From: Naegleria gruberi
Lineage: Eukaryota
Length of the DNA: 64,000 nt
Direction: 5' to 3' (one strand)
Assembly (NCBI GenBank): GCA_000004985.1
Contig: GG738847.1
Of the stretch, positions 45,869-52,086 are shown one piece after another. Numbering within the stretch: the first letter of the stretch is position 1; every line of letters begins with the position of its first letter. The notes under the pieces were generated by a model, which saw only the letters and a list, made by a program, of their open reading frames with translations, ran no database searches and was not told the origin of the DNA. The position numbers were made by a program, and so were the translations under genes.

Positions 45869-47965
45869 TTAATATCTGCTAATAAAAAGCCATGCATTTG
45901 GTTCTTTACCAGTTATAACACAAACATCCCCAGACTCAATTTTAGGGAATCTATCCACAAGATGTTGGTTAGACAATTCTGAAAATTTTGAATATCCTCT
46001 AAATTCAGCATTTGTTTTCTTGTAAAAATCCTCTTCCACTTCATGAATCCTATCCCACAACTCTTCACTAATATGGATTGGAGCAACAACATGCCAGAAT
46101 GGCGAATTAGTAATTGTCTTGGCATTGTATTCCATTTGTTGCTTTTTTCTCATCTTTGGATCTGTGCTTTGTAAGTTTTGTTTGAATTTTTCGTTAAAGG
46201 TTGAAATTAATTCTTCCATAGATTGAGCTTTTACAATTTGCACTCTATTCAAAATTGATTCCTTCAAATGTGAATCTTCCTTATCTAGTAGAGAACTGAT
46301 CATTTCGAAATTGACTTCATTGGCAGGAATTGTAGATTTCTTCAAACTATTTCTTCCCTTGATTGTAATGGTACTTCCTTCCAACTCTTGTTTTCCAATT
46401 GATACTACAAGTGAAACTCCTTTACTCTCCCACTGATAGAACTTTTCCACATTCTTGGTTGCATATCTCATATCGGCATGAACTCTAAAACCAAATGATT
46501 TGAGTTTCTTCTCCATGCTCCTCACATTCTCATACAATATATTGGTATCACAAGATTTACTGAGCATTGGAACAATAACTATTTGATACTTGTTCATGGT
46601 AGAGTGCAGTCTCAACCCCTTGTCATCTGAGCATGAAGCTGCACAAGCTCCAAGAATTCTAGAAGATATATTGCCACAAGTTTGAAAAATTGGCTGAACA
46701 AATATTTGAGATCAATACATGTTGTGAAAAATGTGAATAACTTACAGAAGTGAAATTATCTTGTTTCAATCTATACACGATATTGTACACATCTGAAAAT
46801 ATCCTTCCATAATACTTTCATTAAATGAAACAAATTAAAGTAGAATTCACTTGAAACAACTTACATTAGTTCTTGCAATATTTACACTAGTATTTACAAA
46901 AGGTAGACTCACATCAAACACAATGGCTTGTTTACAATGTGAGAATGCCTTCCAAGGGAAGAGATGATAGCTAATACCATTCCACAAATTACAAACATTC
47001 AATAGAACTGGAAGGTAAACTCTATTCCACATTATGTCATTCATATAAGAAAGAGCATTCTCCTCTGATTCGTGACAGGTATGAATTTCATGCTGATATT
47101 GCTCCTTATTTCCATAAAACAATGGCAATTGAATTCCCTCATCACTCATTACTTGTTGAAAATTCTTTGTCTTACAAATCACCTTATATGGTAACTGAAT
47201 ATAACTCCTTATAATATTCTTAAGGTATGGGAAGATAGCCCACTCACTATTTGGTTTCAAATAAACATTTGGATAATTAAACTTCATTTCATAATCCTCA
47301 TAAATATATCCTCTACTAAGTGAAAACAATTTAGGATCCATCACATGTTGAAATGCATTGACATTGAATAATGAATTTGTTTCCTTAACCTCTTCCATTA
47401 TACTATCAACTTCAACTTGTGATGATTCATTCCACTCTGGTTCTTCATAATCATCAAATCTAACCAATGGATCAGCACCCAATTCCATCATGGCCGAATT
47501 ATTATTATTACTATTATTCATCAATTGTTGTTGATATTCTTCACCATCTTCCTGTTGTTGACTTCTTGGATTTGGATTACTATTTGATAAGGGTTGATCT
47601 CTCAAACTAACCAGCATGGGTAAATCAATCCTCTCCAATTTCTTCTCTTCTATGGCTCCGATCATTGTCTTTTGTGAGGAGGTTATTCCTTCATCCTTAT
47701 TAGAGGAGGAATCTTGATCGGAAGAGGTTTTCAGAATTTCATCAATTAATTTGGCCTTTTCCAAAGCTTCCTCCTCATCAAATCTTTCATCCACTTTGCC
47801 AAATAATTTATCCATCAATTCAAGTGCCTGTTCCTTCCAAATGATGTGTCCATCGAGTGAGTATCGTTCATCCACAAAATTCAAAATCATTGGAGAGGTA
47901 CTCCACTCCTGAAGCCAAGCTTGAAATTGTGTTAGCTCGACGGTGGTTATTCCTTGAGAAGACAT
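45869..47965 (-). CDS. Divergent prolyl-tRNA synthetase paralog (eukaryote/archaeal-type ProRS architecture); 2 exons; catalytic motif 2 and Zn-binding Cys degenerate
   Basis: Exon 1 is 46865..47965 (ATG at 47965; ends ...VNIARTN|GTAAGT). Intron is ~46694..46864. Exon 2 is 45869..46693 (PIFQTCGNISSRILGACAASCSDDKGLRL..., anticodon-binding domain FRVHADMRYATKNVEKFYQWESKGVSLVVSIGKQEL, C-terminal domain ending ...WLFISRY*). This aligns to human ProRS along catalytic, anticodon-binding and C-terminal domains. Motif 2 reads VMSDEGIQLPLFYGNKEQYQHEIHTCHES (canonical [27 protein letters not shown]). The canonical C-terminal CxC...C Zn ligands are absent (canonical CVCGKNPAKYYTLFGRSY). Confidence 0.7.
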
Positions 47966-48258: not shown

Positions 48259-49158
48259 ATGTCATCAGCAATCCTCTCCCGTTTAGAAACCTGTGTAACT
48301 CGCTTGCAAAAAATCAATCCAAAATCATCTTCTGGTGGTAGTTCTTCATCATCAAGCGATGCTGCTCCTCAAGTTGTTGCCTATGAAGAATATTACAATG
48401 ATAATATTGTTCCATTGTTGGAAACCATGACAAAGATTGGAGGTGAAACTGCTCAAATGGTTAGTTTCTTCTTTTCAATGTTCAATATTTAATCTTCATC
48501 ACATTTTCATGTTATTATTCGAATGTTAATATACTATTGTATTATTATTTTGTAAATATTATAGAAAGATGCTGTTGAACAAGGATTCAAGGGATTAGGT
48601 AAAGTCATTGCTTTGGCTTCCACTCATCGTAAACCATCAAGTAATTATGACGAAACTATTGGTCAAATTCTTCAAAACAGTGGAATTGGACAAGCTTTGC
48701 AAACAACTGCTGATTTCCGTTTCAAGAATTTCAAATCAACTCAAGTTAATCATTTATATGCCATTGAAGAAGGTTTGAAGGTTGTTTTGTGGCCAACTAC
48801 CAATACTACTATTTCCTATGTTAAGGTATGTTTTAATTATTTTAACATCAAATATCTGATATTTGGTTTTCATTCATCACAAATTTACTTTTCACTTTGG
48901 TCTATTCTATCTATTTATGTGAATGATTTTGTTGAATATTGGATTTATATCTGAAAAATATATTAGGAAATGGTTAATGCAGTTTCATTCTATACAATGA
49001 AGGTTTTGACCTCAACAAAGACTAATAGTGATGCTGAAGTTCACAAGGCCTATGTCAACCAATGGAAAACATTGATTGAAGCCATGTCTGTTTATGTGAA
49101 GGAATTCCACATGACTGGATTGACTTTTAATCCAAAGGCTGCTCAAGAAGCTAAATAA
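48259..49158 (+). CDS. Cyclase-associated protein (CAP/Srv2) N-terminal region only: coiled coil plus helical folded domain, 217 aa; 3 exons
   Basis: Exons 48259..48459, 48565..48825 and 48967..49158. Introns carry GTTAGT...TATAG and GTATGT...ATTAG. The protein aligns to the CAP N-terminal half (MSSAILSRLETCVTRLQ; AAPQVVAYEEY...GGETAQM-KDAVEQ; VKEMVNAVSFYTMKVL...YVNQWKTLIEAMSVYVKEFHMTGLTFNPK). A TAA follows directly after ...AAQEAK. No polyproline, WH2 or CARP region. Confidence 0.75.
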
Positions 49159-49185
49159 ATTGTACATTATGTTGTTTTAATAAAG

Positions 49186-50067
49186 TCAATTATGACTTCC
49201 CCAAAAGAAAGTATTTCTCATCTTTTGTAATTTTTCTAATGCACCACTACATGTTCTTCCAATTTCTGTTTGTGTATCATTAATTCGTCTTAAAATAGAG
49301 TACATGTTTAGTATTTCCTCCGTTATATCACCAATAACTTTCATGTCTACATATAATTGATCGAACCACTTTCTGGCCTTTTCCTTGTTGATATTATTTT
49401 CTTCATCGTTCTTTAATATTGAAGTCATGTAAATGGATGTCAGGGACACCAGATAGGGTGGATATTTTAGAACCACCTCCGAATAGAAGCTATCATTCAC
49501 AATATTCCAACAAATCTGATACAGAGATTTATCAAGTTCTGCATCCTTTACATAGGTCATGAGGGAAGTATGAGAGTGAAAAACTGTTAAATTAAAATTC
49601 AATTGTTCCATTAAATATAATTCACATTCCAAAATTTGTTGTAGTGGGTAAGGAAAAAGTGTGGTAACATCCTTTGTATCATAATTTTGTGATGATGGTG
49701 TTTCCTTCCCCAAACATATTTGATGTATATTCTTAGCATTGAGTGGACATTCTTCGATTTTACTTGCCAACAACAATGCTGCAGCTCCCAGCAAGGCAGG
49801 ATCACAATCGGAAATACTATTCTGACAATAAAATCGTTTAAAATACACCATTGCTGTTGAAACTACTCTCAGATGGCCACCCACTTTCTTTCCAATATCT
49901 TTTAAATTTTTAATAGTACTCATCAAAATTAATTGTTTTTCCAAGGGAGAAAATTGTGCATCGGGATCGGATGTATCAAGCTGCTGAAGGGATGTTTGTG
50001 GTTGATTCGAAGAAGCTTGCTGCTGTTGTTTTTTAGATAATTGTGTTTGTATCCATTTGCTAATCAT
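49186..50067 (-). CDS. Cyclin C (Mediator CDK8-module cyclin)
   Basis: Start taken at MISKWIQTQ (ATG ~50067). The track extends upstream from a GTG through low-complexity sequence. Cyclin box with HLRVVSTAMVYFKRFY...LLASKIEE (cyclin C signature). TGA at 49186. Confidence 0.75.
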   Translation of the reverse strand: MISKWIQTQLSKKQQQQASSNQPQTSLQQLDTSDPDAQFSPLEKQLILMSTIKNLKDIGKKVGGHLRVVSTAMVYFKRFYCQNSISDCDPALLGAAALLLASKIEECPLNAKNIHQICLGKETPSSQNYDTKDVTTLFPYPLQQILECELYLMEQLNFNLTVFHSHTSLMTYVKDAELDKSLYQICWNIVNDSFYSEVVLKYPPYLVSLTSIYMTSILKNDEENNINKEKARKWFDQLYVDMKVIGDITEEILNMYSILRRINDTQTEIGRTCSGALEKLQKMRNTFFWGSHN

Positions 50068-50649: not shown

Positions 50650-50748
50650 TTCAATTGGAGTTTGTTCTCTAACGAAGAAATTGACCTTCTTATGATTACC
50701 ATACATATCTATTAATGTTTGATTCTTCAAAAGCATTTGAAAAAAAAA

Positions 50749-52086
50749 ATGAAGAGAAAATATGAAGAAGATTTGCCACAAGAACAACATGATGAAGAAG
50801 TTTCCGTGTTGGCAACCCAAGAGGAGGAAGGAGTAATTTCATTACAAACACAATCATTGGAATCGACGTCGGAAGAGTTTCCAATTGTTGCCACTCAAGA
50901 GTTTGAGCAAAGTGCTCAACAACAATCTTTGAATACTCAGGATAGTTCGAGCCAAGTAGGAGATGTTATTAGTGGATTACAAACACAATCGGAAGTCGTT
51001 GAGAAGACTAGTAAGAAGTGGAAGTTTGAAAATAATTCAACAAGCAAGGATTCTAGCTTTGGAAATTATAAGAATTATTATTCATACAGGTACAATGATG
51101 TGAATGCTGCCAAACCAAAGGAAGATAGGCACTTGATTGATCCAAGATTGGAAATAATTTCAAATTGTTTAACGAATTACTTCAAAAATTCCACGGAGTC
51201 ACCAATTAACCTCAATTGTTTAGATATTGGATGTAATCAAGGGTTATTTTCAATGCAAATGGCTGACTTTTATGAATCCCAACTTGGTGTAAAGGCTGAG
51301 AAAGAAATTTCCTTGAAAAATATGAATGCAATCGATATTGATTCAGTACTAATTAGAAAAGCAAAGGATCATTTAATTAATTTGAAGAGATTCAATGCTA
51401 CAGAGAAGGATCAAGATGAGGACGACAAACTTGGCATGAGTGTTCATACTTATGTGGCTTTACATCGAGCAGAGACTCCAGAGGAAAAGGAAGAGAAAAT
51501 TTTCATCTGGAGAAATAATAGAAAATTATTGAAAGAACATTTGGACAATTCTGTGAATATTTGCCACAAATCCTACATGAATACTCTAATCGATAAGGTA
51601 CATTTCAAGGTGCAGAATTTCGTAGAAGAAATTGTAGAAACAAAGATTTCTGACTTAACAATTGAAAAGATGCAGGAAATTATTTCAAAATCAACAAACA
51701 AGACTCAGGCCACATTTAATATCATTTCTTGCTTGAGTGTAACAAAATGGGTTCACCTTAATTATGGAGATAATTCTGTAAAATTCCTATTCCACAAAAT
51801 TCACAAGCTACTCAAGCCTGGAGGAATATTCATTTTAGAACCTCAACACTGGAAAAGCTACACAAAAAAGAGAGAACTCAACTCTAAAATTCAGGAAAAC
51901 TTTAAACACATCAAATTCAGACCAACAAGCTTTCACGATTATTTGTTGAAGGAAGTTGGCTTTACTTCTAGTGAAACCTTTTTCATTGATGAAAATTCCA
52001 CTGAGACACCAACAGGAAACAAGGAAAATGAAAAAAAGAAGAAGAAGGGATTTAAGAAACGTCCAATAGTTTTTTACTATCGTTGA
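50749..52086 (+). CDS. MEPCE: 7SK snRNA methylphosphate capping enzyme / Bin3-family RNA methyltransferase
   Basis: ATG at 50749 (aaaaaaaaATGaag). SAM-binding CLDIGCNQGLFSMQMA. Bin3 C-terminal signature VTKWVHLNYGDNSVKFLFHKIHKLLKPGGIFILEPQHWKSY. Confidence 0.8.
   Translation: MKRKYEEDLPQEQHDEEVSVLATQEEEGVISLQTQSLESTSEEFPIVATQEFEQSAQQQSLNTQDSSSQVGDVISGLQTQSEVVEKTSKKWKFENNSTSKDSSFGNYKNYYSYRYNDVNAAKPKEDRHLIDPRLEIISNCLTNYFKNSTESPINLNCLDIGCNQGLFSMQMADFYESQLGVKAEKEISLKNMNAIDIDSVLIRKAKDHLINLKRFNATEKDQDEDDKLGMSVHTYVALHRAETPEEKEEKIFIWRNNRKLLKEHLDNSVNICHKSYMNTLIDKVHFKVQNFVEEIVETKISDLTIEKMQEIISKSTNKTQATFNIISCLSVTKWVHLNYGDNSVKFLFHKIHKLLKPGGIFILEPQHWKSYTKKRELNSKIQENFKHIKFRPTSFHDYLLKEVGFTSSETFFIDENSTETPTGNKENEKKKKKGFKKRPIVFYYR

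What the first reader, a model, noticed from the sequence alone, without database searches (positions are those of the whole stretch)
48259..49158. CAP/Srv2 gene that stops right after the helical folded domain
The three-exon gene aligns convincingly to the N-terminal half of cyclase-associated protein (coiled-coil plus HFD, which binds cofilin-actin). It terminates with TAA at the HFD boundary. The next gene (cyclin C, opposite strand) begins 28 bp later, so no polyproline/WH2/CARP exons can follow locally. This looks like a natural HFD-only CAP, or half of a split CAP gene.
Basis: partly seen in the sequence, partly recalled or inferred. Interest (0 to 1): 0.5.

Follow-up and report, generated by a model that had tools for sequence, protein, structure and literature searches.

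The report
Natural N-terminal-half-only CAP paralogue in Naegleria
This Naegleria gruberi gene encodes only the front half of the actin regulator CAP (oligomerisation helix plus helical folded domain); it is a conserved extra copy kept alongside a normal full-length CAP, not half of a split gene.

Summary
Exons 48259-48459, 48565-48825 and 48967-49158 (+) splice into a 217-aa protein. It matches the whole Pfam CAP_N model (E 9e-33) and human CAP1 residues 7-208. Its AlphaFold model (pLDDT 91.9) superposes on the mouse and human CAP1 HFD (TM 0.92-0.94, rmsd 1.5 A). The TAA stop falls 11 residues after the domain. A convergent cyclin C gene ends 27 bp further on. No WH2/CARP coding exists anywhere in the 64 kb.

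The window is Naegleria gruberi NEG-M. Orthologues of the same size and end point occur in N. lovaniensis (221 aa, 62% identical) and a probable N. fowleri (222 aa), with different downstream neighbours and dN/dS of 0.13-0.15. These genera also have full-length CAPs (N. lovaniensis 497 aa, N. fowleri 501 aa, Willaertia 491 aa). A 495-aa full-length gene lies in the same metagenome as a contig 99.6% identical to the window. So "natural HFD-only CAP" is supported, as a paralogue, and "split gene" is not.

The protein equals the laboratory fragment N-CAP, which carries CAP's full cofilin-dependent pointed-end depolymerase activity. That is its most likely function, but it is untested. Willaertia made a similar truncated copy independently. 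I found no paper describing natural N-CAP-only proteins. Interest is modest.

The parts
48259..48459 (+). Exon 1 (aa 1-67): start codon, N-terminal helix, Ser/Gly-rich linker and first HFD helix
   Evidence: One search gives the splice model. The ORF is identical to P0018 from an independent metagenome contig.
48268..48315 (+). Codons for aa 4-19, the predicted N-terminal helix corresponding to CAP's oligomerisation domain (RLE..RL motif)
   Evidence: AF2 predicts helix 4-19 with pLDDT about 70. It aligns to human CAP1 residues 7-20. R8, L9, E10 and L16 are kept. Pfam CAP_N-CM was not reached at E<=0.01.
48460..48564 (+). Intron 1 (105 nt, GT..AG, phase 0)
   Evidence: The same position and phase occur in the short and the full-length CAP genes of other Naegleria and of Willaertia.
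48565..48825 (+). Exon 2 (aa 68-154), the middle of the HFD
48826..48966 (+). Intron 2 (141 nt, GT..AG, phase 0), specific to the N. gruberi lineage
   Evidence: It is absent from N. lovaniensis, L002, Willaertia and the full-length paralogues.
48967..49158 (+). Exon 3 (aa 155-217 plus the TAA stop at 49156-49158): last HFD helices and an 11-residue tail
48382..49122 (+). Helical folded domain (aa 42-206), interrupted by the two introns
   Evidence: Pfam CAP_N 1-159/159, E 9e-33. Foldseek to 6RSW, 9Q7O and 1S0P gives TM 0.90-0.94 and rmsd 1.5-1.8 A.
48988..48993 (+). Codons for F162-Y163, the aromatic pair of the actin-binding helix
   Evidence: F162 is invariant and Y163 is >=90% conserved in a 50-sequence alignment. 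Mutating mouse F162/Y163 abolishes actin binding (PMC6876575).
49179..49184 (+). AATAAA hexamer in the 27-bp gap between the two stop codons; candidate poly(A) signal (inference only)
   Evidence: Read directly from the sequence. There is no transcript evidence.
49186..50067 (-). Convergent neighbour: cyclin C homologue (293 aa from the first ATG), which rules out downstream CAP exons locally
   Evidence: Pfam Cyclin_N 1.2e-13. Best PDB match is cyclin C at 1.4e-32, against cyclin K at 7e-22.

Best explanation
The locus encodes a functional, selectively maintained paralogue of cyclase-associated protein. It consists only of the N-terminal helix (oligomerisation domain), a short disordered linker and the helical folded domain. 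In effect it is a natural version of the laboratory fragment N-CAP. It arose by DNA-level duplication of a full-length CAP gene with loss of the polyproline, WH2 and CARP part. This happened at the latest in the common ancestor of N. gruberi, N. lovaniensis and N. fowleri. It now sits beside a normal full-length CAP encoded elsewhere.

[quoted passage not shown] This would speed cofilin-dependent depolymerisation without the nucleotide exchange and monomer recharging done by the C-terminal half. That job would be left to the full-length CAP.

Shown here: gene structure, domain content, fold, conservation, selection, and coexistence with full-length CAP in the genus. Inferred: actin and cofilin binding, oligomerisation, expression, and the presence of full-length CAP in strain NEG-M itself.
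For: Domain and fold:
- Pfam CAP_N covers the full model at 9e-33.
- Human CAP1 residues 7-208 align at 1e-17.
- The AF2 model has pLDDT 91.9, and its top 10 Foldseek hits are all CAP HFDs, with TM 0.84-0.94 and rmsd mostly 1.4-2.0 A.

Same extent as N-CAP:
- N-CAP is as efficient as full-length CAP, and oligomerisation is needed for that (PMC6876575).
- The critical F162/Y163 pair, NHL, W143, P91, K199 and H202 are conserved.

Conservation and selection:
- Orthologues of 221 and 222 aa end at the same place with different downstream genes.
- dN/dS is 0.13-0.15 at dS about 0.5.
- A second N. gruberi isolate has 0 changes in the 654-nt CDS, against 2 in intron 2 and 4 in the neighbouring cyclin CDS.
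- The short clade has 100% bootstrap support.

Duplication rather than split:
- Full-length CAPs exist in N. lovaniensis, N. fowleri and Willaertia.
- Contig L008 encodes a 495-aa full-length CAP, has 32.7% GC, and comes from the same sample as L004, which is 99.6% identical to the window.
- Intron 1 has the same position and phase in both paralogue types.

Partner protein: N. gruberi has a cofilin (XM_002669269, PMC4082629).
Against: - There is no transcript or protein evidence for this gene, in N. gruberi or elsewhere.
- The short copy departs from the consensus at 7 of 21 columns that are >=90% conserved in canonical CAPs (E17Q, L141V, P149T, N165M, L194M, W208F, G212A). Naegleria full-length CAPs depart at 1 of 21. 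Some change of binding properties is therefore possible.
- The N-terminal motif does not reach Pfam CAP_N-CM at E<=0.01, and its helix has only about 70 pLDDT, so oligomerisation is uncertain.
- No protein named N. gruberi came back for either the short or the full-length CAP. Full-length CAP in strain NEG-M rests on a metagenome contig, not on the reference assembly.
Confidence: 0.7

Rival explanations
1. Modulator through hetero-oligomers. The short protein does not act alone. It co-assembles through its N-terminal helix with full-length CAP, changing the ratio of HFD arms to CARP/WH2 arms in the tetramer or hexamer. This would tune depolymerisation against monomer recharging, or act as a dominant-negative. 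It is a variant of the main explanation rather than its opposite.
For: Both paralogues keep the RLE..RL(E) helix at the same place (alignment; R8, L9, E10 and L16). Oligomerisation through this segment is required for CAP activity. The short clade has its own conserved changes in the helix, for example Cys12 in all three species.
Against: The helices of the short and full-length proteins differ at many positions. N-CAP alone is fully active in vitro, so co-assembly is not needed for function.
Confidence: 0.2
2. Neofunctionalised HFD. The paralogue kept the fold but no longer works on cofilin-actin. It would serve another partner, for example binding one of Naegleria's many cyclases through the N-terminal helix, as yeast Srv2 binds adenylyl cyclase.
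For: Substitutions at near-invariant CAP positions are more frequent than in the full-length copy (7/21 against 1/21). The short clade sits on a long branch.
Against: The actin-contacting aromatic pair F162/Y163 and the R..KN..S..NHL helix are kept. Most deviations are conservative. Cyclase binding by CAP is restricted to a few species (PMC7543520).
Confidence: 0.1
3. Half of a split CAP gene. The organism has no full-length CAP and makes the N-terminal and C-terminal halves from two separate genes.
For: The yeast halves are reported to work in trans (my recollection of Chaudhry et al. 2014; not checked here). No N. gruberi-named full-length CAP was returned.
Against: Full-length CAPs are annotated in N. 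lovaniensis, N. fowleri and Willaertia next to the short genes. A full-length gene (L008) lies in the same sample as a 99.6%-identical copy of the window. In the tree the short proteins form a clade separate from the N-halves of the full-length proteins.
Confidence: 0.03
4. Decaying remnant or annotation and assembly artefact. The gene would be a truncated pseudogene left by a partial duplication, or its missing exons would be lost in a misassembly.
For: Partial duplications often give truncated dead copies. There is no expression evidence.
Against: The ORF, both splice sites and the same end point are intact in three species that are 62-88% identical. dN/dS is 0.13-0.15. An independent assembly (L004) gives the same locus with an identical CDS. 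The fold prediction is very confident.
Confidence: 0.04

Closest known systems
Canonical full-length CAP/Srv2 (human CAP1/CAP2, yeast Srv2, Dictyostelium CAP; in Naegleria P0007, P0279 and the L008 gene)
   Same: The N-terminal RLE helix, linker and six-helix HFD are homologous. Identity to the Naegleria full-length N-halves is 46-49%, and about 29% to human CAP1. The actin-binding F-Y pair is the same, and intron 1 sits at the same position as in the Naegleria full-length genes.
   Different: It lacks the proline-rich regions, WH2 and CARP/dimerisation domain altogether. It therefore cannot recharge ADP-actin or bind profilin, and cannot act at barbed ends through C-CAP. It is also more diverged at conserved positions.
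Laboratory fragment N-CAP (mouse or human CAP1 residues 1-215/217; yeast N-Srv2)
   Same: Domain content and boundaries are the same: window aa 5-209 align to human residues 7-208. In vitro this fragment carries the whole cofilin-dependent pointed-end depolymerase activity (PMC6876575, PMC13048244).
   Different: N-CAP is an engineered truncation. This is a genome-encoded, conserved gene whose activity has not been measured.
Apicomplexan truncated CAP (Plasmodium, Toxoplasma, Cryptosporidium), which is CARP-only
   Same: It is a natural CAP family member reduced to one functional half (PMC6785269).
   Different: It is the mirror image: apicomplexans keep only the C-terminal CARP domain, and that is their sole CAP. 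Naegleria keeps the N-terminal half as an extra copy next to a full-length CAP.
Other HFD-only or multi-HFD proteins in sequence databases (Willaertia P0009, Pharyngomonas P0044, Cercozoa MAG P0126, Pygsuia 2xHFD P0010, Porphyridium 5xHFD P0005, Namystynia 4xHFD+CARP P0004)
   Same: All use the HFD as a module without a one-to-one CARP partner.
   Different: Their origins are independent. The Willaertia copy groups with Willaertia's own full-length CAP (100% bootstrap, 71% identity). The others have tandem repeats rather than a single HFD. None is characterised.

Membership tests
CAP/Srv2 family, N-terminal half | Helical folded domain (Pfam PF21938 CAP_N; six-helix bundle) | tested here: met
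   E 9e-33, 114 bits against a cut-off of 27, full model 1-159. AF2 pLDDT is 91.9. Foldseek to 6RSW_C, 9Q7O_W and 1S0P_A gives TM 0.90-0.94 and rmsd 1.5-1.8 A.
CAP/Srv2 family, N-terminal half | N-terminal oligomerisation helix / conserved motif (Pfam PF01213 CAP_N-CM, RLExxxxRLE) | tested here: inconclusive
   Not reported at E<=0.01 for the window protein, and only 4e-4 for the N. lovaniensis orthologue. However, residues 5-20 align to human 7-22, R8, L9, E10 and L16 are kept while E17 is Q, and AF2 predicts helix 4-19 at pLDDT about 70.
CAP/Srv2 family, N-terminal half | Actin-binding aromatic pair of the HFD (mouse F162/Y163) within the P107-Y172 contact helices | tested here: met
   F162 and Y163 are present (KEMVNAVSFY). 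The column is invariant or >=90% conserved in 50 sequences. Their role is stated in PMC6876575 and PMC13048244.
CAP/Srv2 family, full-length architecture | Proline-rich region and WH2 motif | tested here: not met
   The protein ends 11 residues after the HFD. There is no tblastn match to residues beyond 216 of three Naegleria CAPs anywhere in the 64 kb.
CAP/Srv2 family, full-length architecture | C-terminal CARP beta-helix domain (Pfam PF08603 CAP_C) | tested here: not met
   No PF08603 hit. No CARP coding was found in the window, nor within 6-10 kb downstream of the orthologues in L001, L002/L003 and L009/L010.
CAP/Srv2 family, function | Acceleration of pointed-end depolymerisation of cofilin-decorated actin filaments | not testable with these tools
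   Needs purified protein and single-filament assays. Here it is only inferred from domain identity with N-CAP.
Split CAP gene (N-half and C-half as the only CAP genes) | No full-length CAP in the same genome | tested here: not met
   Full-length CAPs exist in N. lovaniensis (497 aa), N. fowleri (501 aa) and Willaertia (491 aa). The L008 full-length gene lies in the same sample as a 99.6% copy of the window. The NEG-M assembly itself could not be searched.
Functional gene (as opposed to pseudogene) | Purifying selection and an intact reading frame in several species | tested here: met
   dN/dS is 0.13-0.15 for N. lovaniensis against L002. ORFs and splice sites are intact in three species. The CDS is identical in a second N. 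gruberi isolate.

The most novel reading that the evidence does not exclude
Vahlkampfiid amoebae have repeatedly (Naegleria once, Willaertia separately, perhaps Pharyngomonas too) evolved stand-alone N-CAP genes. If so, there is selection to uncouple CAP's pointed-end depolymerase arm from its monomer-recharging arm. The short protein would either form its own oligomeric depolymerase or mix into full-length CAP oligomers to set the ratio of HFD to CARP arms. That would be a natural separation-of-function system, possibly tied to the very fast actin-only motility of these microtubule-free amoebae.
Probability: 0.3. Interest if true: 0.55.

Novelty: new variant of a known kind. Interest (0 to 1): 0.38.

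Why it matters
Reviews describe CAP as a single multidomain protein present in every eukaryote examined (PMC7543520). The only natural truncation I found described is the CARP-only CAP of Apicomplexa. A conserved gene that encodes exactly the fragment biochemists cut out as N-CAP shows that evolution has made the same separation of function, and has done so more than once. It offers a natural test of whether pointed-end depolymerisation and monomer recharging need to sit in one oligomer. In practical terms, the gene (and perhaps the full-length CAP too) did not come back under an N. gruberi name from the protein collections. Inventories of Naegleria actin regulators may therefore miss it.

Tried and rejected
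- The exact look-up of the 372-aa upstream ORF was not on record.
I therefore could not establish whether the NEG-M reference annotation has a model for this gene.
- The afdb50 fold library was not available.

Limits of the protein searches:
- Three word-index protein searches returned no N. gruberi-named CAP.
- P0007 was not returned, although the query was cut from it. The index has gaps, so I do not treat absence as evidence.

Literature:
- Six searches and several full-text look-ups (papers) found no description of CAP in Naegleria or of natural HFD-only CAPs.

Hypotheses rejected:
- Downstream exons: no CARP or WH2 coding in any frame of the window, and the three forward frames after the stop are full of stop codons.
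- Willaertia's 226-aa protein as an orthologue of the Naegleria short gene: it groups with Willaertia's own full-length CAP.
- A truncated gene model in Willaertia or N. lovaniensis: no CARP coding within 6-10 kb downstream.

Full report
**What is there.** The window is AT-rich eukaryotic DNA (about 33% GC). Five of its ORFs are letter-for-letter identical to annotated proteins of Naegleria gruberi strain NEG-M on a 941,567-bp scaffold.

At the reported coordinates three exons (48259-48459, 48565-48825, 48967-49158, + strand) join through two GT..AG introns. The introns are 105 and 141 nt and 19-21% GC; the exons are 35-39% GC. The result is a 654-nt CDS of 217 codons ending in TAA. The second junction is checked independently: the N. 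lovaniensis orthologue reads the same residues (..VSYVK|EMVNAV..) without an intron.

The protein matches Pfam CAP_N (PF21938) over the entire model (1-159 on aa 42-206, E 9e-33). It aligns to human CAP1 residues 7-208 at E 1e-17. An AlphaFold2 model built on a 50-sequence alignment has mean pLDDT 91.9. It shows an N-terminal helix (aa 4-19), a disordered Ser/Gly linker (about aa 20-36) and a helical bundle. Its ten best Foldseek hits in the PDB are all CAP HFD structures: mouse 6RSW/6RSQ, human 9Q7O/9Y9J and Dictyostelium 1S0P/1TJF, with the best hits at target-normalised TM 0.90-0.94 and rmsd 1.5-1.8 A. The next hit has E 0.5.

**The end of the gene.** The stop (49156-49158) lies 11 residues after the last HFD position. 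The next ORF is on the opposite strand, and its stop codon is at 49186-49188, so 27 bp separate the two stops. Its best solved relatives are cyclin C (1.4e-32, against cyclin K at 7e-22).

tblastn with three full-length Naegleria CAPs finds only the HFD gene in the 64 kb. Nothing matches residues beyond about 216. The three forward frames after the stop are closed. An independently assembled metagenome contig (L004, sample ERZ929261) is 99.6% identical over 1,765 bp. It encodes the identical 217-aa protein, with 0 differences in the CDS, 2 in intron 2, 1 upstream and 4 in the cyclin CDS.

**Is it a real, maintained gene?** The closest database protein is a 221-aa N. lovaniensis protein (P0001, 62% identical). 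It is CAP_N-only and ends at the same place. A second Naegleria, in contigs L002/L003, has a 222-aa orthologue after splicing. It is 88% identical to N. lovaniensis, the same distance as the N. fowleri and N. lovaniensis full-length CAPs (89%), so it is probably N. fowleri.

In those species the downstream gene is pyruvate carboxylase, not cyclin C. The shared end point is therefore not a side effect of local gene packing. dN/dS between the two close species is 0.13-0.15 at dS about 0.5. No CARP coding lies within 6-10 kb downstream in any of these loci. A pseudogene or a truncated gene model is therefore very unlikely.

**Split gene or paralogue?**
- N. lovaniensis also has a 497-aa CAP (P0007, XP_044553151.1) with HFD, PPPP, a WH2-like segment and CARP.
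- N. fowleri has a 501-aa CAP (P0279) and Willaertia magna a 491-aa CAP (P0280).
- Contig L008 has 32.7% GC and comes from the same metagenome sample that holds the 99.6%-identical copy of this window. It encodes a 495-aa full-length CAP after removal of one intron. This is most likely the N. gruberi full-length gene, but I could not search the NEG-M assembly itself.

In neighbour-joining trees of the N-terminal halves the three short proteins form one clade (100% bootstrap). The Naegleria full-length proteins form another (98-100%). Intron 1 sits at the same codon and in the same phase in short and full-length genes. That points to a DNA-level duplication followed by loss of the 3' half, not retroposition.

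The second alternative (half of a split gene) does not hold.

**How it probably works.** The protein has the same extent as the experimental fragment N-CAP.
- Human N-CAP (residues 1-215) accounts for CAP's full depolymerisation activity. [quoted passage not shown] Two HFDs of one oligomer displace the terminal cofilin-bound subunit (PMC13048244).
- N-CAP is as efficient as full-length CAP, whereas a monomeric HFD needs more than 20-fold higher concentration. Mutating F162/Y163 abolishes binding (PMC6876575).

The Naegleria protein keeps F162 and Y163, the R..KN..S..NHL helix, W143, P91, K199 and H202. N. gruberi has a cofilin.

I therefore think it most likely (about 0.55) that it acts as a cofilin-dependent pointed-end depolymerisation factor lacking the monomer-recharging half. 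It could act alone or mixed into full-length CAP oligomers through the N-terminal helix.

The cautions are these:
- The N. gruberi protein differs from the consensus at 7 of 21 columns that are >=90% conserved in canonical CAPs, against 1 of 21 in the Naegleria full-length proteins.
- Its N-terminal motif falls below the Pfam CAP_N-CM threshold.
- There is no expression evidence.

**Comparison with what is known.** Reviews describe CAP as a multidomain protein found in all eukaryotes examined (PMC7543520). The recognised natural truncation is the CARP-only CAP of Apicomplexa (PMC6785269), which is the mirror image of this case. In six literature searches I found nothing on CAP in Naegleria or on natural N-CAP-only proteins.

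The sequences themselves are public. The N. lovaniensis orthologue is auto-named 'CAP N-terminal domain-containing protein'. The exhaustive HMMER search also shows other unusual HFD architectures:
- OD+HFD only in Willaertia, Pharyngomonas, a cercozoan MAG and a rotifer;
- 2xHFD in Pygsuia;
- 5xHFD without CARP in Porphyridium;
- 4xHFD plus CARP in a diplonemid.

The Willaertia short protein is 71% identical to Willaertia's own full-length CAP and groups with it at 100% bootstrap. N-CAP-only genes have therefore arisen at least twice within this group of amoebae.

**Verdict.** This is a real and correctly delimited gene. It is a member of the CAP family by its HFD but not of the full-length architecture: WH2 and CARP were tested and are absent. 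It is a conserved paralogue rather than a split gene. It is a new variant of a known kind. It is of moderate interest to actin biologists as a natural separation-of-function form, and of minor interest otherwise.

Noticed in passing
L009 6001-6735 and L010 6001-6735 (Willaertia magna, two contigs): Willaertia has its own 226-aa OD+HFD-only protein (P0009). It is 71% identical to the N-half of Willaertia's full-length CAP (P0280) and groups with it at 100% bootstrap. This is an independent and more recent origin of an N-CAP-only gene than the Naegleria one. No CARP coding lies within 6 kb downstream.
   Followed up: partly
Proteins P0004, P0005, P0010, P0017, P0044, P0126, P0101: The HFD occurs in unusual architectures in other eukaryotes: 4xHFD+CARP (Namystynia), 5xHFD without CARP (Porphyridium, 960 aa), 2xHFD (Pygsuia and many ~430-aa metagenomic proteins), and single OD+HFD (Pharyngomonas transcript, cercozoan MAG, rotifer). 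None appears to be characterised.
   Followed up: partly
window 48826-48966: Intron 2 of the short CAP gene is absent from the N. lovaniensis and L002 orthologues, from Willaertia and from the full-length paralogues. This suggests a lineage-specific intron gain in N. gruberi, or parallel losses elsewhere. Intron 1 is shared by all.
   Followed up: partly
window 49159-49185: Only 27 bp separate the stop codons of the convergent CAP-N and cyclin C genes, so their 3' UTRs must be extremely short or overlap. An AATAAA sits at 49179-49184 on the + strand.
   Followed up: no
window 48259-49158; L008 497-2195: Neither the short CAP nor a full-length CAP came back under an N. gruberi name from the protein collections, although other NEG-M proteins of this window are there. 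Only prokaryote-style ORF fragments from metagenomes matched (P0018, P0011, P0152). Both genes may be missing or mis-modelled in the reference annotation, but the index has gaps, so this is not certain.
   Followed up: partly
window 50719-52086 (+): An ORF with a Bin3/MePCE-type methyltransferase domain (Pfam Bin3 3.6e-34) lies just beyond the cyclin C gene.
   Followed up: no
window 46847-47965 (-): The divergent upstream neighbour is a 372-aa ORF whose start lies 293 bp from the CAP-N ATG. It has no Pfam match, and the exact sequence is not on record in the gene-position collection.
   Followed up: no
L005 (5319 bp) against L006 and L007: The same 413-aa CAP ORF (P0153, a third Naegleria-like species) sits on contigs of very different overall GC (50% in L005, 40-41% in L006/L007). 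L005 may be chimeric, or may carry a GC-rich neighbour region.
   Followed up: no
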